Shown: piece after piece, positions 2,031-31,412 of the stretch
Layout of the letters: the number at the start of each line of letters is the position of its first letter
Numbering within the stretch: the stretch's first letter is position 1
Origin: Eubacteriales bacterium
Lineage (GTDB): Bacteria > Bacillota > Clostridia > Oscillospirales > CAG-382
DNA: 64,000 nt
NCBI GenBank assembly: GCA_045595165.1
Contig: JAZNZY010000005.1
Coordinates: 22,945-86,944 of the forward strand
Reading direction: 5' to 3'
Program-made: the position numbers and the translations under genes
Notes under the pieces: generated by a model
Database searches by the model: none
Seen by the model: only the letters and a program-made list of their open reading frames with translations
What the model was told of the DNA's origin: nothing

Positions 2031-3832
2031 TTTTTATCTCCTTCAAAATAACTTATAATACTGTCTGCCGTCTTTTCGCTTAAGCCCTTGACCTTTAAGA
2101 GCTCCTCCCTGGTTGCCTGCTTTACGGCTTTATAGGAGCCGAAATGCCCGAGAATAGAAGCGGCGGTCTTTTCTCCTACCCCTTTTATAGCGGTGAGAGA
2201 GCTTGCGCTTACGGATTTACGGCGTTTTTTATCCATTCTATCAAGAGAAAATCTGTGGACTTCCTCTTGTATGCGGTATATGAACACGAAAAGATCCTGT
2301 CTTGCGGTAAGACCGATCTCGTTTTCTCCGTCGGTAAGAGATCGGGTTTTGTGATGCTCGTCCTTTATCATACCGAACACGGGTATGTGGGACAGTCCCT
2401 TGGAAGCGAGAACTCTTTTTGCTACGGCAACGTGCTGAACACCGCCGTCCATAAGCAGCAGATCGGGCGCATCCCATTCGCTGTGGGAAAACCTGCGCAA
2501 AAGCGCTTCTTCCGTTGCGCCGTAGTCGTTTTGGGCGAATTCTTTTATATTAAAGGTGCGGTAATGCTTTTTTGCAAACCGACCGTTTATAAGCACGGTC
2601 ATACCCGCGGTAGTATATTCTTCCCCCGAATTTGAAATATCAAAAGCCTCTATACGCTCAGGCACGGTTTCAAGCATAAGGAAAGAGGCAAGATTTGCAA
2701 GTACAGCAACGTCCTTTTCCTCCGCTTTGCGCTTGTGCAAAAGCAGTTCCTTGGCATTTGTCTGTGCCATTTCCGCAAGGGTCTTTTTATCCCCTCTGCG
2801 GGCAATTCTCAAATTTACTTTAAGACCGGAAAACTCCTTTGCCCACTGCTCGAAAAGATCAATATCTCCGTTTTCCAATTCAAAGGTAGTGTAAATATCC
2901 TTTGGAATATATCCGCGAAGGGTGTACAGCCGCTGAAGTAAAGAAACAACGGCAGAAGAATCCAATATCTCGTCTGCGCCGAAATACAGACACTCTCTAT
3001 CCGCAATAGCGCCGCGGCGAACGAAAAACAGGTTTACGGCGGAGCCCAGATCATCACGGTAAACGCCGATAAAATCTCCCTCAAACTCGGGTGCTCCTAC
3101 GATATGCTGTTTATCCCCCAAACGCTTTACGGCGTTTATACGGTCACGGTACTTAGCGGCACGCTCGTAATACATTTCCTCTGCCGCCGCGTTCATTTTC
3201 TCAGTCAATGACTTGATCAAAAAGGCATATTCACCGTTTAAAAAACGAGAAAGCTCTGAAAATATCTCTTTATATTCCCCGCTGCTTACGTTGCCCGAGC
3301 AAGGCGCCACACAAAGCCCTATCTGTGCGTTAAGACAAGGTCTTTGCTTGCCGATATCCTTGGGGAAAACACGGTTGCAGGTAGGAATACCGAAGGTGCG
3401 GCGGGCGGTATCCGCTATATTGCGCGCCACAACGTAAGAGGAAAAGGGGCCGAAATAACGGGCTTTATCATCCTCCCGCTTATACACGGTAACAAGGCGG
3501 GGGTACTCTTCATCGGTAATTTTAAGATAAGGATAGCCCGAGGAATCCTTAAGCTTTATATTATATCTGGGCATATACTGCTTTATAAACGAATTCTCAA
3601 GCAGTAATGCCTCCAGCTCGGTATCGGTATGATATACCTCAAAATCGTGGACGGAAGCCACCATACGGGCAGTCTTTCCCGTATGTGTCTGGGCAAAATA
3701 GGAGCTTACACGGTTGCAAAGCGCCTTGGATTTACCCACGTAAATGACCTTGCCTGCGCGGGAACGCATTATATACACGCCGGGAGAAGCCGGAAGCAGG
3801 CGCGCTTTTTCCAGTAATTGCTCTTTGGTCAT
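2027..3832 (-). CDS. uvrC: excinuclease ABC subunit C
   Basis: GIY-YIG N-terminus (GVYIMRSRAGKVIYVGKS), UvrBC and endonuclease regions, C-terminal HhH (IKGVGEKTAASIL). 601 aa. Confidence 0.95.
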   Translation of the reverse strand: MTKEQLLEKARLLPASPGVYIMRSRAGKVIYVGKSKALCNRVSSYFAQTHTGKTARMVASVHDFEVYHTDTELEALLLENSFIKQYMPRYNIKLKDSSGYPYLKITDEEYPRLVTVYKREDDKARYFGPFSSYVVARNIADTARRTFGIPTCNRVFPKDIGKQRPCLNAQIGLCVAPCSGNVSSGEYKEIFSELSRFLNGEYAFLIKSLTEKMNAAAEEMYYERAAKYRDRINAVKRLGDKQHIVGAPEFEGDFIGVYRDDLGSAVNLFFVRRGAIADRECLYFGADEILDSSAVVSLLQRLYTLRGYIPKDIYTTFELENGDIDLFEQWAKEFSGLKVNLRIARRGDKKTLAEMAQTNAKELLLHKRKAEEKDVAVLANLASFLMLETVPERIEAFDISNSGEEYTTAGMTVLINGRFAKKHYRTFNIKEFAQNDYGATEEALLRRFSHSEWDAPDLLLMDGGVQHVAVAKRVLASKGLSHIPVFGMIKDEHHKTRSLTDGENEIGLTARQDLFVFIYRIQEEVHRFSLDRMDKKRRKSVSASSLTAIKGVGEKTAASILGHFGSYKAVKQATREELLKVKGLSEKTADSIISYFEGDKK

Positions 3833-3852
3833 AGGCGGAGTCCTTTTTTAAG

Positions 3853-3886
3853 ATAAAAAAACAAACGGGAGGGGCAAGCCCCTCCC
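3853..3886 (-). terminator. rho-independent terminator after ptsH
   Basis: GGGAGGGG-cttg-CCCCTCCC followed by GTTTGTTTTTTT on the minus strand. Confidence 0.8.
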
Positions 3887-3921
3887 CCTGAAAGTTGAGA
3901 TGACAGTATTTACTTAAAAGC

Positions 3922-4185
3922 TTAATCGGCAAAACCGCTGAGTATTAGAGAGCAAAGTCCCTCGATTGCCTCGTTTTCGTCTATGCCGTCTGCAATGAGT
4001 GTAACAGAATCACCCTGACGAACGCCAAGGGAAAGTACGCCCAGCAAGCTCTTTGCATTTGCGCGGCGTGAGTTGTTTTCTATCCACACGGAGCATCTGT
4101 ATGAGTTTGCTTTCTGTATAAAGAAAGTGGCAGGGCGGGCGTGAAGTCCCACGCTGTTAACCAATGTTATCTCCTTTGAAAGCAT
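3922..4185 (-). CDS. ptsH: phosphocarrier protein HPr
   Basis: 87 aa. His15 context VGLHARPA; Ser46 context AKSLLGVLSLG. Confidence 0.9.
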   Translation of the reverse strand: MLSKEITLVNSVGLHARPATFFIQKANSYRCSVWIENNSRRANAKSLLGVLSLGVRQGDSVTLIADGIDENEAIEGLCSLILSGFAD

Positions 4186-25614: not shown

Positions 25615-26904
25615 TTACCAATCAAAATCCGTGCAGGGCATAATGACCGTGCCGGGAAAATAAAAGGCAAGTATGCTTTGCCAGGAATGACCCTCAACAC
25701 CCATCTGGTGTCCTCCCCGCTGGCTGTAGCCCACACCGTGTCCGTTTCCGATACCGTGTATGGTTATTCCGCCGGGAACGGGCTCGATAGTAAAATTGGC
25801 ACATCTTACGCCCAGAACAGCCATAATGTTGCCGCCGAACTTTATTTCGCTTACCTTACCTGCGGTATCCACTATATTTAATCGGTAAACATAGGTGCCT
25901 CCGTAAGGGTCGGTTTCGGCAATGGTAACCGCCGCAACGGATCCCGTGGTGGTATATGCTTTAAGTCTTTTGCTTAATTGCTCGTAGGTATAGGTTACTT
26001 CCCACCGTCCGCCGTAATCAAGGGGCTCGTTTTCGTACCTGACTACGCGAAGATAGGGTATATCCGCTCCCACCCACGCCGCAAAGCTGGAGCAGGAGTT
26101 GTATCCGTGGCTGGAGCTGTACGCCACCAGACAAGGAACACCGTTATAGGTAAGCACCATTCCCTTGGTATCGTCCACGGCTTTATCGTTTGTTTCATCG
26201 CGGTGATGGGTGCCTCTGTAGGACTGACAGCAGTTAAAGCAGCAAAGATCAAATTCCTCGCCATGGTCCTTTGCCACGAAAACCAGAGTACGGCATATTA
26301 CCGCAAAGGCTTTTCGGCTTTCATAAGAGCCGTCCGCGCCGATCTCCGCAGAAAGCACGCCTTTTACGTAAGTTTCTATATCTACGCGGTTGACAACGGT
26401 TATACCGTATCTTCCGCAGGTCAGCAGTATCGTACCCTCATATGCCCAGCCGGTCGAAGAAAGAGTGATCTCCGAACCCGAGCGCACGCACGCCTTTTGA
26501 CACACCTGCCCGTCCACATACATAATTCCGTTTTCCCATTTTACGGAAAGCGTCTTATACACATCCCCTCCGTAAAGCAGCATATCTCCCTCGCTTGCGG
26601 TCAGTTCAAGTGATCTATAAGCGTCCCTTCCGTAGCTGAGTCCCACGTCTATCAGACGGTCCTGTACCGTTTCGGTTTCGGGGCGATGCAAGATAACCGG
26701 GAGCGCAGGTTCGCTGAAATCCGCGTACGTCTGCTCCTCGCTCTCTCCGGAAGAGGAATCCTGCAGTTGGGACAGATCGTCTTCCCCGAAAGACTCGCCG
26801 CCCTCATCCCCGCAAGATGCCAACGAAACCGGCAGCGAAGCGAACAATATAAGCAACGCAAGCAGCACTGCTATTTGTTTTCCAGCAGTTAATTTCGTGA
26901 GCAT
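25615..26904 (-). CDS. spoIID: SpoIID/LytB-domain protein (lytic transglycosylase / amidase-enhancer type)
   Basis: VKGVLSAEIG...SRKAFAVICRT block with the Glu retained, and C-terminal GNGHGVGYSQRGGHQM. Lipoprotein-like N-terminus (PVSLASCG). Confidence 0.75.
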   Translation of the reverse strand: MLTKLTAGKQIAVLLALLILFASLPVSLASCGDEGGESFGEDDLSQLQDSSSGESEEQTYADFSEPALPVILHRPETETVQDRLIDVGLSYGRDAYRSLELTASEGDMLLYGGDVYKTLSVKWENGIMYVDGQVCQKACVRSGSEITLSSTGWAYEGTILLTCGRYGITVVNRVDIETYVKGVLSAEIGADGSYESRKAFAVICRTLVFVAKDHGEEFDLCCFNCCQSYRGTHHRDETNDKAVDDTKGMVLTYNGVPCLVAYSSSHGYNSCSSFAAWVGADIPYLRVVRYENEPLDYGGRWEVTYTYEQLSKRLKAYTTTGSVAAVTIAETDPYGGTYVYRLNIVDTAGKVSEIKFGGNIMAVLGVRCANFTIEPVPGGITIHGIGNGHGVGYSQRGGHQMGVEGHSWQSILAFYFPGTVIMPCTDFDW

Positions 26905-26957
26905 TTTCTTCTCCTTTTAAAAACAAAACTGATCGGAAATATTTGGGATAGTGTAAT

Positions 26958-26985
26958 ATTATACCAAAAAGCAAGGCGTTGTCAA
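26958..26985 (-). promoter_or_regulatory. promoter of the SpoIID/LytB gene
   Basis: TTGACA-16-TGgTATAAT (extended -10). Confidence 0.6.
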
Positions 26986-27070
26986 TGTTTTTTTGAATTT
27001 TTCACCGCAGAAACGGCATAAAACCCATATGTTTTGACAGTTTTACGGGTTAAATTTTGGTTTTTTACAG

Positions 27071-27101
27071 CAAAAAGCCAAGTCGGAAAACGGCTTGGCT
27101 T
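27071..27101 (-). terminator. terminator after the HAD gene
   Basis: AGCCAAG...CTTGGCT stem followed by TTTTT on the minus strand. Confidence 0.7.
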
Positions 27102-27107
27102 TTGAAA

Positions 27108-27794
27108 CTATTTAACGATTTCCGCAATTTTACCCAGATCATCAATTTCATATGTAACGGGAATATCCGTTTTATTGGGCTTGTGCTCAGGGTTAAACCA
27201 ACAGGTATCTATCCCCGCAATAAACCCGCCTTTCATATCGCTTGTGAGGGAATCTCCGATCAAAAGCACCTCGTTTTTGTTGGTTATACCGAGGTTTTCG
27301 AACACGTAATCAAAATACGCTTTGTTCGGTTTTTCTGCACCCACGTTTTCGGATATAAACACGGCGTCAAAAACCTCGTTCAGACCCGAAAGCCGTAATT
27401 TCTTTTCCTGGGCTGTCTTTGTTCCGTTTGTAACGGCGGCAAGAACGTATTTCCCTTTTTGGGAAAGAAGAATATCCTGCGCTTTATCAACAAACTCTAT
27501 ATGGTCCCCAAGGGTTATTTGGTAATCTTCGTTGAAATTTTCCGCTATGCTTGTATCCACGCCTATTTCCCCGAAAAACGCCCGAAACCTTCCGACCAGA
27601 ATTTCTGCTTTGGTAAGCTCGTTCCGTTCCAGCATCTGCCAGTATTTTACGTTTATTCCCGAATACAGCTTTAACATCTCATCACTGCATTCTCCTATTT
27701 TATATTTTTTAAACAGCACTCGTATTGCATACGCCTCTGCCGCAAGGAAATTAAGCACCGTTCCGTCTATATCCCATAACAAATATTTGTACAT
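27108..27794 (-). CDS. HAD-IA hydrolase (YjjG-like nucleotidase/phosphatase)
   Basis: LLWDIDGTV motif I, AVTNG motif II, LLIGDSLTSDMKGG motif III. Start refined to MYKYLLWD. Confidence 0.85.
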   Translation of the reverse strand: MYKYLLWDIDGTVLNFLAAEAYAIRVLFKKYKIGECSDEMLKLYSGINVKYWQMLERNELTKAEILVGRFRAFFGEIGVDTSIAENFNEDYQITLGDHIEFVDKAQDILLSQKGKYVLAAVTNGTKTAQEKKLRLSGLNEVFDAVFISENVGAEKPNKAYFDYVFENLGITNKNEVLLIGDSLTSDMKGGFIAGIDTCWFNPEHKPNKTDIPVTYEIDDLGKIAEIVK

Positions 27795-27811
27795 TACAAT
27801 TCCTTCCTCGC

Positions 27812-28303
27812 TCACCTTTCGGCGATATTTATTTTTACCGTGTACCAAGCTTCGCTTTTATATTCATCCCATTCAATAATAACATTTTTGAATGTAAAGA
27901 GAACCGTAAAAAACGGATCTTTGGATATTGCATCAATAAAATGGGTAGTTCCTTCTTTTATGCCTAAATCTAAAACGGTTAATCCGGACGCTAATTGGTG
28001 CGAAAAGCGGGAATGAGCGGAACTTCCCTTTAAAATGATTTGCGGTTCGGCAGTATGAAGCTCACCATTTTCGTCTTGATGCCAGGTTCTTCCCGGCTCA
28101 TAAGACAGCAGATCGAATCCTTCAAAGGTAATAAGGGCGTTTTCGATTTCCATATCTGTTTCGTGAGAGTTTTGCGCCGTGCCTTTGTGAATATTCAAGC
28201 AATTTGCTTTAACCTTTAAACAGTTGTTTTCAAATGCCACAAGTGAGAATTCCGCATCGTGGAATTCGAAATCAGATAGTCTGTTTACAGAATTATATCT
28301 CAT
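27812..28303 (-). CDS. hypothetical protein
   Basis: 163-aa ORF with its own TTGCAA-17-TATACT promoter and AAAAGGCGG RBS. No motif recognised. Confidence 0.6.
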   Translation of the reverse strand: MRYNSVNRLSDFEFHDAEFSLVAFENNCLKVKANCLNIHKGTAQNSHETDMEIENALITFEGFDLLSYEPGRTWHQDENGELHTAEPQIILKGSSAHSRFSHQLASGLTVLDLGIKEGTTHFIDAISKDPFFTVLFTFKNVIIEWDEYKSEAWYTVKINIAER

Positions 28304-28323
28304 AACATCACCGCCTTTTCATC

Positions 28324-28352
28324 AGTATATTACAATATATGGAAAATTGCAA
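28324..28352 (-). promoter_or_regulatory. promoter of hypothetical gene 27812-28303
   Basis: TTGCAA-17-TATACT, 20 nt upstream of the ATG region. Confidence 0.55.
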
Positions 28353-28360
28353 TGTTCAGT

Positions 28361-28573
28361 TTGCGCGGAGCGCAACATCGTTGGGCGCAAGCCCACATCA
28401 TTTGCGGCTTGTCGCAACTTCATTTGCAACTTGTTGCAACATCGTTTTGTGTCCGCAAGCGGACATGATGTTCTCGCTTTGCTCGAAATGATGTTGACCT
28501 TCGGTCAAATGATGTTGTGTCCTTTGCCCCACGAAACTTCGTTTCGCGGGGACCCAAAAGCGGACACAAATGA
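28361..28573. repeat. mirror-organised array of eight ~22-nt mini-hairpin units
   Basis: Units have TTGnnn-loop-nnnCAA palindromes with different stems. Linkers are CATC(R)TT on the left of U5 and ATGATG on the right. See findings. Confidence 0.7.
28527..28555 (-). repeat. GGGTCCCC-hairpin element, short copy inside unit U8 of the hairpin array
   Basis: Minus strand reads GGGTCCCCGCGAAAC-gaag-GTTTCGTGGGG. Confidence 0.6.
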
Positions 28574-28600
28574 AAAAATCCAAGTCTTTCGACTTGGATT
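28572..28600 (-). terminator. terminator of tRNA-Leu
   Basis: ATCCAAGTC-gaaa-GACTTGGAT followed by TTTTTT on the minus strand. Confidence 0.8.
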
Positions 28601-28602
28601 TT

Positions 28603-28689
28603 TGGTGCCGGTGGCGGGGGTCGAACCCGCACGGTATCGCTACCACTGGATTTTGAGTCCAGCACGTCTGCCAATTCCATCACACCGGC
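28603..28689 (-). tRNA. tRNA-Leu (anticodon CAA), CCA encoded
   Basis: Hand-folded from GCCGGTGTGATGGAATTGGCAGACGTGCTGGACTCAAAATCCAGTGGTAGCGATACCGTGCGGGTTCGACCCCCGCCACCGGCACCA. 7-bp acceptor stem, anticodon stem CTGGA/TCCAG with loop CTCAAAA, long variable arm GGTA/TACC, T-arm GCGGG-TTCGACC-CCCGC. Confidence 0.95.
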
Positions 28690-28705
28690 GCATTACGCTT
28701 TGAGC

Positions 28706-28734
28706 AGTATAGCACACTTTACACCGTTTTTCAA
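28706..28734 (-). promoter_or_regulatory. promoter of tRNA-Leu
   Basis: TTGAAA-17-TATACT. The -10 element ends 16 nt before the tRNA 5' end. Confidence 0.65.
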
Positions 28735-28792
28735 GTGGTTTACAACACTTTTTTACAGGAATTCTTGCAAGGAAGCAAACATTATCCCCGTA

Positions 28793-28821
28793 TTGCAAAT
28801 CGGCACCGACTATGATATACT
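28793..28821 (+). promoter_or_regulatory. promoter of the 28844-32649 gene string
   Basis: TTGCAA-17-TATACT, 22 nt upstream of ATG 28844. Confidence 0.55.
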
Positions 28822-28843
28822 TTTACCGAAAGAAGGTAAAGCA

Positions 28844-30478
28844 ATGAGTACATATTATACAAACAAGCCCATTATAAAAGAAGCTGCGGGGAACGCAAAA
28901 GAAATATCGGGCGAGAGGAAAAATCTTATTCTCGGTCTGCCCATACATTCCATCGAGGAAAAGGTATCCTTCGGGGTGAAGGGTGACCGCCCTCACACCA
29001 ATTACGATACCGATTCCCCCTTGCTTACCGACGGAATTTACAGCCCCGACGAAAATTACAAAAACCCCCAATGGTTCCATATAAACAGAGGCGAAGGACG
29101 GGTTATAACCTTTAAGCTTCCCTGCCTCTGCGCGGTTGACGGGTTTATGATAAGCGCCTGCAGAAACGACGAAGTTGCCGTGCGCACGCCCGCATACGTT
29201 AAAATACGCGTATCTGCCGACGGAGAGAATTTTGAAACCGTATACGATAACGAGGACACACGTTCCCACGTTGACAGACAGAATTTTATAATTAAAGGTG
29301 ATTTTGAAAAAACGCTGGCTTTATACGTTCAGATCGCTTTTGACGTTGTTCACCACGTTTATATTGATGAAATCGAGGTTTTCGGTTGCACGGACACAAA
29401 GGGCGCCAAGCAGCCGGTAGCAGACGGGGTCCCCGTATTCAACGAAAAGCCCGTTCCCGCAGAAATTAACGAATATCCCGACGAGGACATTTTGGGGGCG
29501 AGAAATATCGCCCTTACATACAATTTCCGCCCCGTCGCCGAGGACAAGGGCTTGCAGACGGAAGAAAATTATCTTCCCCTTACCGCTTATCTCGATAAAG
29601 ACGGAAATATTAAAGACACGTTTATGGACGGATTTTTGTTTTTGCCCGACGTATCTATGGATTACACTCCCCGCGGTCAATTCGCAGACGGCTGGAAGGA
29701 ATATATGGACAGCGTGTTTGTGAAGGGCAAAAATCTGGATGCTTTGAACTCCGCCGCAAAAAAGACAGGGGACGCTTTGGGAAACCCCGAATACAAGGTA
29801 AAGGTGTATTTCACCCTGCTTTATACCTATACCCACCACAGCGAATTCGGTACCGTGAACGGGGAAAAGCTGGTATTCGATAACCCCGAAAGCCGCAAAA
29901 AGGCGCTGAGATGGCTGATAGATTATATGCTTGAAGAATACGAAAAAGGCGGATATTCCCACACGGAGGTGGGTGGATTTTATTGGTTTGAGGAAGCCTT
30001 GAATCCCACCGACAGATACGAGCAGGAAATTATACGCGATACCTGCGAATACATACATTCCAAGGGGTACAAATGCTTCTGGATACCCTATTTTTGCGCT
30101 CTGGGATATGAAACCTGGAAAGAATACGGATTTGACGTTGCTTGTATGCAGCCGAACTATATGTTTGATTATGATATCCCTCAAAGCAGGCTTTACGAAA
30201 CCGCAACCCAAGCGTTTCGTATGGGAATGTGCGTAGAGCTGGAGGTTTGGAAGATATACGATGAGGACGGAAGCATAGACTCCGACAGTATGGAGAACAT
30301 ACGCAGATTTATACAGTATCTTGAGGCGGGCAAGGAAACGGGATATATGTACGCCCCGAAGATGTATTATCACGGAAGTGCCAAGGGCAGCGTGATAACA
30401 AACGGCTTTAGCAGCAAAAATTCCGCTTACCGTGAAATGTATGATAAAACATACTTGTTTGCAAAGAAAAAGCTGTAG
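28844..30478 (+). CDS. hypothetical protein with an N-terminal discoidin (F5/8 type C)-like region and a C-terminal DUF4855-like region (uncertain)
   Basis: Start refined to MSTYYTNKP, downstream of a TTGCAA-17-TATACT promoter. LLTDGIYSPDENYKNPQWFHI is typical of galactose-binding-like domains. The C-terminal family guess is from memory only. Confidence 0.7.
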   Translation: MSTYYTNKPIIKEAAGNAKEISGERKNLILGLPIHSIEEKVSFGVKGDRPHTNYDTDSPLLTDGIYSPDENYKNPQWFHINRGEGRVITFKLPCLCAVDGFMISACRNDEVAVRTPAYVKIRVSADGENFETVYDNEDTRSHVDRQNFIIKGDFEKTLALYVQIAFDVVHHVYIDEIEVFGCTDTKGAKQPVADGVPVFNEKPVPAEINEYPDEDILGARNIALTYNFRPVAEDKGLQTEENYLPLTAYLDKDGNIKDTFMDGFLFLPDVSMDYTPRGQFADGWKEYMDSVFVKGKNLDALNSAAKKTGDALGNPEYKVKVYFTLLYTYTHHSEFGTVNGEKLVFDNPESRKKALRWLIDYMLEEYEKGGYSHTEVGGFYWFEEALNPTDRYEQEIIRDTCEYIHSKGYKCFWIPYFCALGYETWKEYGFDVACMQPNYMFDYDIPQSRLYETATQAFRMGMCVELEVWKIYDEDGSIDSDSMENIRRFIQYLEAGKETGYMYAPKMYYHGSAKGSVITNGFSSKNSAYREMYDKTYLFAKKKL

Positions 30479-30491
30479 TCAAGGAGAAAAA

Positions 30492-31412
30492 ATGAAAAAA
30501 TATATATCTTTTTTACTTATATTTGTTTTTGCTTTAACCGCCTTTGCGGGATGTGAAACGACGAAAGAGAACGTTTCCGAAGAAGCGAGCGAGGTTTCCG
30601 AAAACGTTTCCGAGGAAGTATCTGAAGAGATTTCCGAAGAAGTGTCCGAAGAAATATCTGATGAGGTTTCGGAGGAGGATGAGGTTTTAACCTCTATCGT
30701 CGGTTCCTGGACGGAATGCTATACCGAAGAGGATTATGCGGACGGATATATCTGGCTTAACGGGTTTGTGTTCGGTGAAAACGGATGCTGTATTGCTTTC
30801 GACACGGAATACAACGTATACGAGGACGAAAACGGCGATATTATGTTCGAGCCCTGCGGCGGAAACAGCCGCGAGGGAGTGTATACGCTTAACGGCAATA
30901 CGCTTATTATCGTATTTGATTTTTCCGTTCAGTACGGTGATAGCTTCTCAAAAACATATACGATAAGCAAAGAGGGCGAAAACCTGATCATTGACGGCAC
31001 GGAATATTTCTTGGAAGCCGAAACGGGCTACGTTCCCGAAAAGCTTACCAAAGAGCTGCTTTACGGCTTGTGGGAGTTTTATGAATTTGAAAACGGCACT
31101 TGTACGAAAGAGTGGATGGAATTCAGAGAAGACGGCACCTGCGAATACGTAAAGGAAAGCTACGTGGAAGCAAACCCCGGCGAAACCGATCTTATTTTGA
31201 TAGACGGAAAGCTTTATAAAAGAGAAAAAACACATGAATGGATCATGGGATATTTTGATATTCACGGCGCGGAAACGGTGACGCTTACCATTCAATCGGA
31301 GGACGTGGTATTCACCGGTTATTACTTGAGCTTATATCAGGATTATCTCACCATATTCTGGCAATACGATGAAGAAGGCGACGTACGAAGCGAGCTTGTA
31401 AAGGTAAACTGA
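30492..31412 (+). CDS. lipoprotein with an acidic VSEE-repeat linker
   Basis: AAGGAG RBS, lipobox LTAFAGC, then about 8 tandem (V/I)SEE(x) units. Confidence 0.8.
   Translation: MKKYISFLLIFVFALTAFAGCETTKENVSEEASEVSENVSEEVSEEISEEVSEEISDEVSEEDEVLTSIVGSWTECYTEEDYADGYIWLNGFVFGENGCCIAFDTEYNVYEDENGDIMFEPCGGNSREGVYTLNGNTLIIVFDFSVQYGDSFSKTYTISKEGENLIIDGTEYFLEAETGYVPEKLTKELLYGLWEFYEFENGTCTKEWMEFREDGTCEYVKESYVEANPGETDLILIDGKLYKREKTHEWIMGYFDIHGAETVTLTIQSEDVVFTGYYLSLYQDYLTIFWQYDEEGDVRSELVKVN
30573..30683 (+). repeat. in-frame tandem ~15-nt coding repeats, (V/I)SEE(x), about 8 units
   Basis: GTTTCCGAAGAAGCG.../GTTTCCGAGGAAGTA/TCTGAAGAGATT/TCCGAAGAAGTG... Confidence 0.7.

What the first reader, a model, noticed from the sequence alone, without database searches (positions are those of the whole stretch)
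28361..28573. Mirror-organised array of eight ~22-nt mini-hairpins between the tRNA-Leu terminator and the next promoter
The units have a 20-24 nt period:
- U1 28361-28375: TTGCGC-gga-GCGCAA
- U2 28382-28395: TGGGC-gcaa-GCCCA
- U3 28402-28417: TTGCGg-cttg-tCGCAA
- U4 28424-28439: TTGCAA-cttg-TTGCAA
- U5 28450-28465: TGTCCG-caag-CGGACA
- U6 28471-28487: degenerate
- U7 28494-28508: TTGACC-ttc-GGTCAA
- U8 28515-28569: TTGTGTCC...GGACACAA, interrupted by a 39-nt insert that is itself a GGGTCCCC-hairpin element

The stem sequences all differ, yet each stays self-complementary, and most ends are TTG...CAA.

The linkers are one conserved word. To the left of U5 it reads CATCGTT / CATCATT / CTTCATT. 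To the right it is the reverse complement, GATG / ATGATG / ATGATG. The region is therefore two opposed tandem arrays meeting at U5.

Left and right linkers can also pair with each other: AACATC 28438-28443 with GATGTT 28467-28472, and ACATCATTT 28395-28403 with AAATGATGT 28507-28515. This would give a rod with side hairpins in RNA, or a cruciform in DNA.

The array sits in a slot insulated by a terminator upstream and a promoter downstream on the minus strand. No annotated feature explains it.
Basis: seen in the sequence. Interest (0 to 1): 0.65.

Follow-up and report, generated by a model that had tools for sequence, protein, structure and literature searches.

The report
Mirror array of DNA mini-hairpins
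A 220-base spacer between a tRNA gene and the next gene alternates a repeated 8-letter word with tiny, very stable hairpins, half on each DNA strand; it belongs to a repeat family in gut and rumen Clostridia that I could not match to any described element, and its function is inferred, not shown.

Summary
Nine copies of one word (core ATCAT; five forward, four reverse, period 20-23 nt) alternate with eight GC-rich palindromes. They fill the gap between the bidirectional tRNA-Leu terminator and the promoter of a 163-aa ORF. The array is not unique. About 28 arrays with the same grammar were found in related Oscillospiraceae/Acutalibacteraceae genomes assembled from metagenomes (MAGs).

The grammar is a G-poor word N-A-T-W-T-C-A-Y followed at once by a 5-7-bp stem. 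The stem is capped by a C-GNA-G or C-GNNA-G loop on the strand that carries the word. The two half-arrays lie on opposite strands. Stem sequences change freely between relatives but stay Watson-Crick (740 pairs; 5 G.T and 5 A.C mismatches). Tetraloops show no GNRA preference. No Rfam family matches, and I saw no credible promoter for an array RNA. Arrays abut terminators and usually end at a -35 box.

I read it as a DNA-level element: an array of supercoil-extrudable 'mini-hairpins' plus a protein-recognition word, REP/BIME-like in logic. It is not a member of any family tested. Long-range 'rod' pairing is possible but shows no covariation. Arrays are about 15-fold enriched beside the 163-aa gene, whose fold matches no known structure.

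The parts
28603..28689 (-). tRNA-Leu(CAA) gene with encoded CCA. Its promoter is TTGAAA-17-TATACT at 28734-28706.
   Evidence: ARAGORN; Rfam tRNA, 51.4 bits; promoter scan
28574..28603 (.). Bidirectional intrinsic terminator: 13-bp stem, 4-nt loop, A-run on one side and T-run on the other. It abuts the array.
   Evidence: (I3). Equivalent terminators abut at least 24 of 28 curated arrays, counted by eye and by script.
28354..28449 (+). Left half-array; the + strand carries the word. Words at 28354-28363 (degenerate), 28373-28384, 28393-28404, 28415-28426 and 28437-28449. Hairpins: U1 28361-28375 (loop GGA), U2 28382-28395 (GCAA), U3 28402-28417 (CTTG, with a G.T pair), U4 28424-28439 (CTTG).
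28450..28465 (.). Central hairpin U5, TGTCCG-caag-CGGACA, where the word orientation flips. It is replaced by a different palindrome in L001 (TCCGC-ataaac-GCGGA) and differs again in L064.
28464..28578 (-). Right half-array; the minus strand carries the word ACATCAT. + strand copies lie at 28464-28473, 28485-28496, 28506-28517 and 28567-28578. Hairpins read on the minus strand: U6 28471-28487 (loop AAA, tandem G.A), U7 28494-28508 (C-GAA-G), U8 28515-28569.
28523..28561 (-). 39-nt lineage-specific insert replacing the loop of U8. It is itself a hairpin (CCCCGCGAAAC-gaa-GTTTCGTGGGG on the minus strand) and so obeys the loop-polarity rule. It is unique in the window and in all loci fetched.
   Evidence: (I11)
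28324..28352 (-). Sigma-70-type promoter of the 163-aa ORF: TTGCAA-17-TATACT. The array starts 2 nt upstream of the -35 box if the degenerate word at 28354 is counted.
   Evidence: Equivalent promoters follow other arrays, for example TTGAAA-17-TGgTATAAT at L004 4745.
27812..28303 (-). 163-aa ORF of unknown fold and function. Arrays are about 15-fold enriched within 700 nt of its homologs, so it is a candidate partner, not a shown one.

Best explanation
The array works at the DNA level, not as an RNA gene.

Each unit is an 8-nt G-poor word (N-A-T-W-T-C-A-Y; here ACATCATT) followed directly by a GC-rich 5-7-bp inverted repeat. The cap of that repeat, on the strand carrying the word, is C-GNA-G or C-GNNA-G. 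This is the 'mini-hairpin' motif, which is exceptionally stable as DNA. Four to five units lie on the + strand (28354-28449) and three to four on the minus strand (28464-28578), pointing at each other across the central palindrome U5.

Proposed mechanism (inferred): when the spacer is negatively supercoiled or transiently single-stranded, the spacers snap out as small hairpins. The hairpins are stable on the word strand and weaker on the complement. The short words stay between them as the sequence-specific part that a protein reads together with the hairpin foot. Placing the halves on opposite strands gives the same structure from both directions.

The element fills the stretch that lies between the bidirectional terminator and the -35 box and is presumably untranscribed. 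I therefore infer that it is a structural, protein-bound boundary module between transcription units. It would act as a sink for superhelical stress and a landing pad. As a side effect it would be a junction at which neighbouring DNA is exchanged.

In logic this is REP/BIME-like. It is not a member of that family.
For: Shown:
1. The grammar is general. About 28 curated arrays in related MAGs have the same build with different words (ATATCAT, GCATCAT, ATATCAC, ATTTCAC, ACTTCAC, GCTTCAT, GCATCAC, TCATAAC).
2. The position-specific profile upstream of 70 hairpins reads A-T-W-T-C-A-Y directly at the stem foot, with G nearly absent.
3. Loop polarity: 73 of 132 hairpins carry C-GN(N)A-G on the word strand against 9 on the other strand. 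27 of 29 arrays follow this (sign test 2e-7; the arrays are not all independent). Outside the array the motif is 10 of 402 hairpin-strands in the window.
4. Loop types fit DNA better than RNA. There are 46 GNA triloops. Tetraloops split 15 GNRA to 12 GNYA, so there is no RNA-type GNRA preference.
5. Stems are almost purely Watson-Crick: 107 of 120 hairpins are perfect, with 740 Watson-Crick pairs and only 5 G.T and 5 A.C mismatches. Neither strand shows wobble tolerance.
6. Stems turn over but stay palindromic. Examples: CGCAC/GTGCG, CCACC/GGTGG and CGCTC/GAGCG at one position in L004, L006 and L011; ccgcaac/ttgcgg against caattcc/ggaattg in L014 and L018; U8 GTGTCC/GGACAC against GTGCC/GGCAC in L064. 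Loop changes keep GNA on the expected strand: GGA to GAA, AAA to GAA, GTA to GCA.
7. Nothing points to an array RNA. Rfam gives no hit. Only a weak 9/12 promoter-like site faces the array on the + strand. Both polarity types occur relative to the flanking terminator and promoter.
8. Arrays abut bidirectional terminators and mostly end at a -35 box.

From the literature:
- d(GCGNAGC)/d(GCGNNAGC) mini-hairpins are far more stable as DNA than as RNA (PMC13037366; closing-pair dependence in PMC3201870).
- 5-7-bp, 3-nt-loop hairpins of this type extrude from duplex DNA at physiological superhelicity in vivo. SSB melts the complementary-strand hairpin (N4 early promoters, PMC4496689).

Link to the protein: 24 of 28 arrays lie within 700 nt of a homolog of the 163-aa gene. 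In the farther flanks the density is about 1 per 70 kb, and the window has 1 in 64 kb.
Against: - There is no direct evidence of extrusion or of any binding protein.
- Nearest-neighbour DNA folding shows no clear strand asymmetry: -19.9 against -20.0 kcal/mol for the left half and -21.0 against -23.2 for the right. I did not check whether the parameter set scores GNA caps specially.
- Structure alone does not explain why the word core is conserved, or why copies in one array are homogenised.
- The 21-22-bp period (two helical turns) would equally suit a protein reading one face of duplex DNA.
- L007/L013 and L009 lack the array, so it is dispensable there.
- Near-identical 163-aa proteins sit next to arrays with different words (L016, L017, L018). 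Any recognition by that protein could therefore cover only the shared TCA core plus the hairpin.
- The protein has no detectable nucleic-acid-binding domain.
Confidence: 0.4

Rival explanations
1. Duplex-DNA operator or centromere-like array. A sequence-specific DNA-binding protein, possibly the 163-aa protein, binds the ATWTCAY words on one face of the helix every two turns, in two opposed sets. It regulates the adjacent promoter or organises the locus, as ParR does at parC or the omega protein does on heptad arrays.
For: - The spacing is a regular 20-23 bp, about two helical turns.
- The word core is conserved across arrays.
- The array ends at, or overlaps, the -35 box.
- Arrays are enriched next to one conserved gene.
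- Nested word partners do not covary, so the words seem conserved for their own sake.
- From my own knowledge, omega-protein heptads read WATCACW, which resembles ATATCAC and GCATCAC.
Against: - It does not explain why every spacer is a perfect palindrome of free sequence, nor the strand-polar C-GNA-G caps.
- Words differ between arrays of one genome: three in L004.
- No ParA/ParM or ribbon-helix-helix gene is nearby, and the 163-aa protein has no known DNA-binding fold.
- One array lies between convergent genes with no promoter (L004 7895-8075).
Confidence: 0.2
2. Structured non-coding RNA. A transcript of about 250 nt runs from near the 163-aa promoter to the bidirectional terminator, or arises by read-through from the tRNA. 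It folds into a rod with side hairpins or into beads on a string, and acts as a sponge, a processing substrate or a regulator.
For: - Both strands fold far better than shuffles as RNA (z = -6.2 and -6.0).
- The terminator has a T-run on the + strand as well, so it could stop a + strand transcript.
- Some loops are GNRA or read as UUCG.
- A few G.T positions pair only on the + strand: U3, and CATCGTT against ATGATG.
Against: - No Rfam match even at E <= 10.
- Only a weak promoter-like site (ATAACA-18-TATATT, 9 of 12) faces the array.
- Across 23 arrays G.T equals A.C (5 each in 740 pairs), unlike structured RNAs.
- GNA triloops dominate, and GNYA tetraloops are about as common as GNRA.
- The loop polarity switches strand at the centre, so no single transcript carries all the stable caps.
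- Both polarity types occur relative to the flanking signals.
- The rod pairing shows no covariation.
Confidence: 0.12
3. Footprint of a mutational or mobile process with no function of its own. Possible sources are repeated fold-back (snap-back) synthesis or template switching primed by stable GNA caps, or repeated insertion of tiny palindromes with duplication of the word. The site would be a recombination-prone junction next to tRNA genes.
For: - Arrays are swapped wholesale between genomes whose flanks are 95-97% identical, with a sharp breakpoint at the last hairpin (L016, L017, L018).
- The unit of terminator, array, ORF and 3'UTR sits beside different tRNAs.
- Duplicated tRNA 3' fragments lie nearby.
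- Presence and absence vary among relatives.
- A 39-nt hairpin is nested in U8.
- Mini-hairpin caps are good fold-back primers (PMC13037366).
Against: - The window array and that of L064 are about 85% identical by eye over about 200 nt, while the neighbouring proteins are 44% identical.
- The grammar is strict and the two halves are balanced in about 28 arrays.
- Loops stay GNA through substitutions.
- Placement against terminators and -35 boxes is consistent.
Confidence: 0.15
4. Bidirectional Rho-loading pad. In read-through RNA the G-poor words each offer a YC (UC) dimer spaced by compact hairpins. This would form a rut-like site that backs up the intrinsic terminator in both directions.
For: - The linkers are almost free of G and always contain TC.
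- The element lies immediately after a terminator.
- In the window (type B polarity) the TCA words come first on either strand when read inward.
Against: - Most arrays are the other polarity type, where the TCA words are transcribed second and could pair at once with the first half.
- It explains neither the DNA-type caps nor the strictly Watson-Crick stems.
- Whether these organisms use Rho was not examined.
Confidence: 0.05

Closest known systems
REP / BIME elements with their RAYT transposases (REPINs)
   Same: - Short extragenic palindromes clustered in both orientations in intergenic spacers just after terminators.
- A conserved short word next to each hairpin (GTAG in REPs).
- Enrichment around one small conserved gene of about 160 aa.
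- Strand-specific, hairpin-based recognition, known for RAYT (PMC3116915, PMC6006769).
   Different: - REP stems are conserved and the copies are dispersed in hundreds. Here the stems are all different and the window has one array in 64 kb.
- The word is ATWTCAY, not GTAG.
- Units are arranged as n direct plus n inverted, not alternating.
- The neighbouring protein has no Y1/HUH Pfam hit and no similar fold in the PDB.
DNA mini-hairpins d(C-GNA-G)/d(C-GNNA-G) in phage N4 virion-RNA-polymerase promoters, the phage G4 origin and RSF1010 ssiA
   Same: - The same cap motif and the same stem length (5-7 bp).
- Variable stem bases are tolerated as long as pairing is kept.
- Stability is strand-asymmetric.
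- Extrusion from supercoiled duplex at physiological density is documented (PMC4496689, PMC13037366).
   Different: - Those are single hairpins read by a dedicated phage polymerase or plasmid primase.
- Here eight or so hairpins form a chromosomal array with a conserved linker word, and no such enzyme is in sight.
- Transcription or priming from the units was not tested.
Integron attC sites
   Same: Structure is conserved while sequence is free. Recognition is of one folded strand. Short conserved boxes lie at the hairpin feet. Sites occur in tandem arrays.
   Different: - attC sites are 55-140 bp, all in one orientation, separated by gene cassettes, and next to an intI integrase (my own knowledge).
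- Here the hairpins are 13-17 nt and 8 nt apart, in mirror halves.
- No Pfam recombinase domain was found in the five ORFs nearest the array that I scanned.
Iteron or heptad arrays of plasmid centromeres and operators (ParR-parC, omega protein of inc18 plasmids)
   Same: A conserved 7-12-bp word repeated at regular spacing in direct and inverted sets next to a promoter. The words resemble WATCACW.
   Different: Those repeats are contiguous or separated by non-palindromic DNA, and they sit beside par genes (my own knowledge). No par genes are here, and the palindromic spacers with polar caps are unexplained.
IS200 (about 700 bp, one ORF of about 150 aa, terminator-like hairpin at the left end)
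   Same: In L014, L018, L021 and L026 a unit of about 0.9 kb (terminator, hairpin region, promoter, ORF of about 160 aa) is shared between unrelated flanks. The layout recalls IS200, as I remember it.
   Different: The protein is not a Y1 transposase. No terminal repeats or target duplications were identified. In the window lineage the ORF appears to be in an operon with a HAD hydrolase.

Membership tests
REP/BIME (REPIN) | Many near-identical copies of the same palindrome dispersed through the genome | tested here: not met
   The eight stems all differ. The 12-mer word is not enriched elsewhere in the 64 kb. Only one array passes the combined filter in the window.
REP/BIME (REPIN) | Conserved GTAG tetranucleotide at the hairpin foot | tested here: not met
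   The conserved flank is A-T-W-T-C-A-Y and is almost free of G.
REP/BIME (REPIN) | Cognate RAYT (Y1/HUH transposase) gene flanked by the repeats | tested here: not met
   The flanking 163-aa protein has no Pfam, NCBIfam or PHROG hit and no PDB or BFVD fold match at E <= 0.001. Arrays do flank the gene on both sides in L004 and L011.
REP/BIME (REPIN) | Extragenic position close to gene 3' ends and terminators | tested here: met
CRISPR array | Identical direct repeats of 23-55 bp separated by unique, non-palindromic spacers of similar length; a leader and usually cas genes | tested here: not met
   The repeats are 8-12 nt, half of them are inverted, and the spacers are 8-14-nt palindromes. None of the five neighbouring ORFs scanned has a cas-related Pfam domain.
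Type III toxin-antitoxin (ToxIN-like) | Tandem direct repeats of about 36 nt on the toxin strand, transcribed with the toxin gene and separated from it by a terminator | tested here: not met
   The period is 21-22 nt and the orientation is mirrored. The terminator lies upstream of the array, and a promoter lies between the array and the ORF. PADLOC gives no hit.
Any Rfam RNA family | Covariance-model match | tested here: not met
   Only the tRNA scores above its threshold. Nothing falls on the array at E <= 10.
Plasmid-type iteron or centromere array | Regular repeats of a conserved word next to rep or par genes | tested here: inconclusive
   Regular word spacing is met. No rep or par domain appeared in the five neighbouring ORFs scanned. 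No similarity to plasmid or phage records.
Chromosomal replication origin | Cluster of DnaA boxes next to an AT-rich unwinding element, usually by dnaA/dnaN | tested here: not met
   There is no DnaA-box cluster at 28 kb. Several arrays can occur within 4.5 kb in one genome. The local GC-skew minimum coincides with divergent gene orientation.
N4-type hairpin promoters / single-strand initiation signals | 5-7-bp stem with a GNA triloop closed by C-G, recognised as extruded DNA by a dedicated polymerase or primase | tested here: inconclusive
   The structural feature is met on the word strand. No dedicated enzyme was identified nearby. Extrusion and initiation cannot be tested with these tools.

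The most novel reading that the evidence does not exclude
The word-plus-mini-hairpin units are single-strand DNA substrates of the adjacent 163-aa protein. That protein would be a nuclease or recombinase with a fold not seen in solved structures. Together they would form a minimal mobile or domesticated system that works like IS200/RAYT-REP but is unrelated to it. It would move or rearrange a cassette of about 0.9 kb to the 3' side of tRNA genes and build the arrays by repeated hairpin insertion or fold-back synthesis.
Probability: 0.12. Interest if true: 0.85.

Novelty: new variant of a known kind. Interest (0 to 1): 0.62.

Why it matters
The C-GNA-G mini-hairpin is known from chemistry and from a few phage and plasmid initiation sites. 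If the DNA reading is right, these arrays would be a chromosomal, multi-copy, evolutionarily maintained use of it, in abundant but uncultured gut and rumen Clostridia. That would give a natural system for asking whether small cruciforms form and matter in bacterial chromosomes.

The strict grammar can be searched for: a G-poor ATWTCAY word, a stem of free sequence and a strand-polar cap, in mirror halves against a bidirectional terminator. It would therefore allow a genome-wide census.

The link to a conserved protein of unknown fold, which sits downstream of 17 different tRNA species, points to a possible new small mobile or regulatory cassette.

Practically, several arrays lie at contig ends and at rearrangement breakpoints. 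They may therefore affect MAG assembly and annotation.

Tried and rejected
- Rfam at E <= 10: only the tRNA.
- CRISPR, type III toxin-antitoxin and origin of replication: rejected on anatomy and on the DnaA-box scan.
- Coding: the mechanical + strand ORFs 28224-28703 and 28339-28491 run through the tRNA gene, the terminator or the array. I judged them non-coding.
- Long-range rod: nested left/right word partners are not more complementary than non-partners (11 arrays against 12, mean difference -0.25 of 13 positions). One compensated pair exists (L010, TATCTCAT with ATGAGATA), but there are counter-examples.
- Wobble asymmetry as a strand test: on the word strand GT/TG 7 against CA/AC 9; 5 against 5 in the stricter count. 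No bias.
- DNA-parameter folding of the halves on each strand: no clear asymmetry.
- 'Best mirror 7-mer' shuffle statistic: uninformative (9 observed, 6.0 +/- 1.2 in shuffles, maximum 12). I used the 12-mer clustering instead.
- Metagenome scan with ATATCAT x3: 120 hits. The candidates with mirror words that I inspected were AT-rich low-complexity or other unrelated repeats.
- Viral contigs: no homolog of the protein. Plasmid and phage blastn with the array: no match.
- Protein annotation: Pfam, NCBIfam, PADLOC, PHROGs, a PDB sequence profile, and Foldseek against PDB and BFVD all gave nothing significant, despite a confident model (pLDDT 93.8).
- Extending the window's own contig through edge ORFs failed, because the exact products are not on record.
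- Conserved terminator core TTTGTC-NNGTA-GACAAA: present next to arrays in seven loci but not in the window.
- The 39-nt insert of U8 is not a repeated element.
Full report
**1. What is in the window**

On the minus strand the order is as follows:
- tRNA-Leu(CAA), 28689-28603, with its own promoter TTGAAA-17-TATACT.
- A 13-bp-stem terminator, 28603-28574, with an A-run on one side and a T-run on the other, so it is bidirectional.
- The array, 28578-28354.
- A promoter, TTGCAA-17-TATACT, 28352-28324.
- A 163-aa ORF, 28303-27812, followed by a HAD hydrolase and SpoIID genes.

A DUF4855 gene diverges to the right of the tRNA.

**2. More than chance**

- Tandem Repeats Finder finds two arrays of period 22 and 21. 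The repeat finder finds the forward family, the reverse family and their inverted matches.
- The 12-mer CAACATCATTTG (up to 2 mismatches) occurs 6 times in 145 nt. About 5.6 hits are expected in the whole 64 kb.
- The 220 nt hold seven non-overlapping perfect hairpins. Dinucleotide shuffles gave 1.17 +/- 1.0, with a maximum of 5 in 2000.
- This is the highest hairpin density in the window, and the only window locus that passes a joint word + hairpin filter.

Refinements: there are nine word copies (five forward, four reverse), and the outer ones are degenerate. U6 carries a conserved tandem G.A mismatch on the minus strand. The 39-nt insert in U8 is lineage-specific.

**3. Relatives**

The 163-aa protein has 103 homologs in uncultured Clostridia. 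I fetched 8 loci by exact protein and 80 from species-representative genomes, mostly Oscillospiraceae, Acutalibacteraceae and Faecousia MAGs.

- L001 (80% protein identity, same synteny) keeps the array almost base for base. It has a different central palindrome and a plain U8, TTGTGTCC-tac-GGACACAA.
- L064 (44% protein identity) has an array that is about 85% identical by my reading of the alignment. It lies downstream of its gene and after a different terminator.
- L007/L013 (68%) keep tRNA-Leu(CAA). In place of the array they have a pyrimidine-arm/purine-arm hairpin of about 90 nt.
- L009 (72%) has no array.

**4. A family with a grammar**

About 28 curated arrays share one build:
- a bidirectional terminator;
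- n copies of a word with palindromic spacers;
- a centre;
- n copies of the reverse-complement word with palindromic spacers;
- usually a sigma-70-type promoter whose -35 box overlaps the last word or hairpin. An example is CATCATTGAAAgc...TGgTATAAT in L004.

Words differ between arrays, even within one genome. L004 has TGATAT/ATATCA, ATGATG/CATCAT and GTGATA/TATCAC within 4.5 kb. All share a WTCAY core.

Aligning 70 units on the hairpin foot gives A-T-W-T-C-A-Y immediately 5' of the stem. G is almost absent from these positions, and the next word starts one base after the 3' foot.

Arrays average 183 nt and 5.2 strict hairpins.

Because the array is mirror-symmetric, it reads the same on both strands. 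Two intrinsic polarity types exist. In one the TCA words come first reading inward (the window and the L014 group). In the other, which is more common, the TGA words come first.

**5. The key new observation: strand-polar DNA-type caps**

I oriented each hairpin to the strand that carries the TCA form of its flanking word.
- Triloops: GAA 22, GCA 14, GGA 5, GTA 5.
- Tetraloops: GCAA 9, GCCA 5, GACA 4, GTAA 3 and others.
- The closing pair is C-G in 111 of 132 hairpins.
- In total 73 of 132 are C-GN(N)A-G on the word strand, against 9 on the opposite strand.
- 27 of 29 arrays follow the rule. The exception, L043, probably has its word mis-oriented.

In the window outside the array the motif is 10 of 402 hairpin-strands.

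In the window array itself:
- The left half has GGA and GCAA on the + strand.
- The right half has AAA and GAA on the minus strand, plus a GAA cap on the inserted hairpin.
- Changes between the window, L001 and L064 keep the rule: GGA to GAA, AAA to GAA, GTA to GCA.

Each half-array is therefore strand-specific, and the halves face each other.

**6. DNA rather than RNA**

- Triloops outnumber tetraloops 46 to 27. Tetraloops are GNRA 15 and GNYA 12, so there is no RNA-style GNRA preference.
- Stems are 107 of 120 perfect, with 740 Watson-Crick pairs and only 5 G.T and 5 A.C mismatches. There is no wobble tolerance on either strand. This is what I would expect of a palindrome constrained in duplex DNA, not of an RNA helix.
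- Rfam is silent.
- Only a weak promoter-like site faces the array. The polarity type is not tied to the flanking terminator or promoter.

From the literature:
- d(GCGNAGC) and d(GCGNNAGC) are extraordinarily stable DNA mini-hairpins, considerably less stable as RNA. They are used at the phage G4 origin, at RSF1010 ssiA and at phage N4 early promoters (PMC13037366). [quoted passage not shown]
- N4 promoter hairpins (5-7-bp stem, 3-nt loop with a sheared G:A pair) extrude at sigma of about -0.035 with Mg2+, and also in vivo. They tolerate any stem bases that keep pairing. SSB melts the complementary-strand hairpin (PMC4496689).

Extrusion of hairpins of exactly this kind from a supercoiled chromosome is therefore physically credible.

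**7. What is not supported**

The long-range pairing of left and right words (the 'rod') is possible. MFE folds use part of it. Across 25 arrays, however, nested partners are no more complementary than non-partners (11 arrays against 12). The words therefore look conserved for their own sake, which points to a reader, most simply a protein. DNA nearest-neighbour energies do not separate the strands.

**8. Context and mobility**

- In at least 24 of 28 arrays a terminator-like hairpin with A- and T-runs abuts the array (by eye and by script).
- 24 of 28 arrays lie within 700 nt of a homolog of the 163-aa gene. Background density is about 1 per 70 kb in the farther flanks and 1 per 64 kb in the window. 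This is my tally from those lists.
- 33 of 72 non-redundant loci have a tRNA on the gene strand within 700 nt upstream, from 17 different tRNA species.
- L018 shares only about 0.9 kb with L014, L021 and L026. That stretch is the terminator, array, promoter, ORF and a conserved 95-nt 3'UTR, and the flanks are unrelated.
- L016 and L017 share 95-97% identical downstream flanks with L018 but carry entirely different arrays. The breakpoint lies exactly at the promoter-proximal hairpin CAAGGC-nnn-GCCTTG.
- Several loci show duplicated tRNA 3' fragments.

Arrays thus sit at junctions where DNA is exchanged. Whether that is their function or a side effect is open.

**9. The neighbouring protein**

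The AlphaFold2 model is confident (pLDDT 93.8, mostly beta strands). No PDB or BFVD match reaches E <= 0.001. There is no significant match to PDB sequences with a family profile, and no Pfam, NCBIfam, PADLOC or PHROG hit. Invariant residues are H15, D16, N37, H39, K40, D50, E52, D77, W145, W153 and Y154. It is a candidate reader of the units, but nothing shows that it is.

**10. Verdict**

The best-supported reading, with confidence about 0.4, is a DNA-level array of strand-polar, supercoil-extrudable mini-hairpins separated by a protein-recognition word. It fills the spacer between a bidirectional terminator and the next promoter. It is REP/BIME-like in logic and resembles N4 hairpin promoters in physics. 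It fails the defining tests of every family I considered.

Rivals:
- duplex operator or centromere-like word array, 0.2;
- by-product of a mutational or mobile process, 0.15;
- structured RNA, 0.12;
- Rho-loading pad, 0.05.

The anatomy, statistics, conservation, loop polarity, Watson-Crick purity and genomic associations are shown. Hairpin extrusion, protein recognition and the boundary or buffer role are inferred.

Noticed in passing
window 27812-28303 (-) and homologs in L001-L088: The 163-aa ORF family has a confident predicted structure with no match to any solved or viral structure, and no family annotation. 33 of 72 loci have a tRNA gene of one of 17 different species just upstream on the same strand. 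In some lineages a unit of about 0.9 kb (terminator, array, ORF, 3'UTR) is shared between unrelated flanks, like a cassette.
   Followed up: partly
L009 (about 2060-2310), L048, L067, L068, L070, L084, L004 3290-3720: Between the gene or array and the real tRNA lie duplicated tRNA 3'-end fragments of about 20-25 nt. There are also rod-like pseudo-tRNA segments that end in the acceptor 3' strand and have their own terminators. These look like traces of repeated insertion at tRNA 3' ends.
   Followed up: no
L007/L013 about 3830-3930 and L075 about 2430-2560: Where the mini-hairpin array would be, after the tRNA-Leu terminator, there is an imperfect hairpin of about 90 nt. One arm is pyrimidine-rich (CTTTTCTTTTATCTCTTCTC...) and the other purine-rich. 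A GCTTTGC-gga-GCAAAGC hairpin is kept next to the promoter.
   Followed up: no
L004 3753-3769 and 4546-4562; also L005, L006, L011, L012, L048, L054: Terminators next to arrays share a conserved apical core, TTTGTC-NNGTA-GACAAA, with variable lower stems. This suggests that terminator and array travel together in those lineages. The core is absent from the window.
   Followed up: partly
L014 3475-3568, L018 3475-3562, L021 1810-1902, L026 3475-3563: A conserved 3'UTR of about 95 nt follows the 163-aa ORF. It contains a direct repeat (ACACCTTTTTACTG twice) and ends just before a variable terminator. The window lineage lacks it; there the ORF runs straight into the HAD gene.
   Followed up: no
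window 27800-28700 compared with L007 3400-4600: The segment from tRNA-Leu to the 163-aa ORF is inverted relative to the SpoIID and DUF4855 neighbours between the window lineage and L007. The HAD gene is missing in L007.
   Followed up: no
window 26000-30000: Cumulative GC skew reaches its minimum here, where gene orientation diverges. There is no DnaA-box cluster, so I do not read it as an origin.
   Followed up: yes
window 30591-30670: A 36-nt (12 x 3) tandem repeat inside the ORF 30432-31412 encodes an acidic SEEVSEE-type repeat after a signal-like N-terminus. It looks like an ordinary low-complexity linker.
   Followed up: no
L010 1-138 and 2700-2950: One genome holds two copies of the same type of array plus terminator (87% identical over 164 bp), in inverted orientation and 2.7 kb apart, each beside different tRNA genes.
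   Followed up: partly
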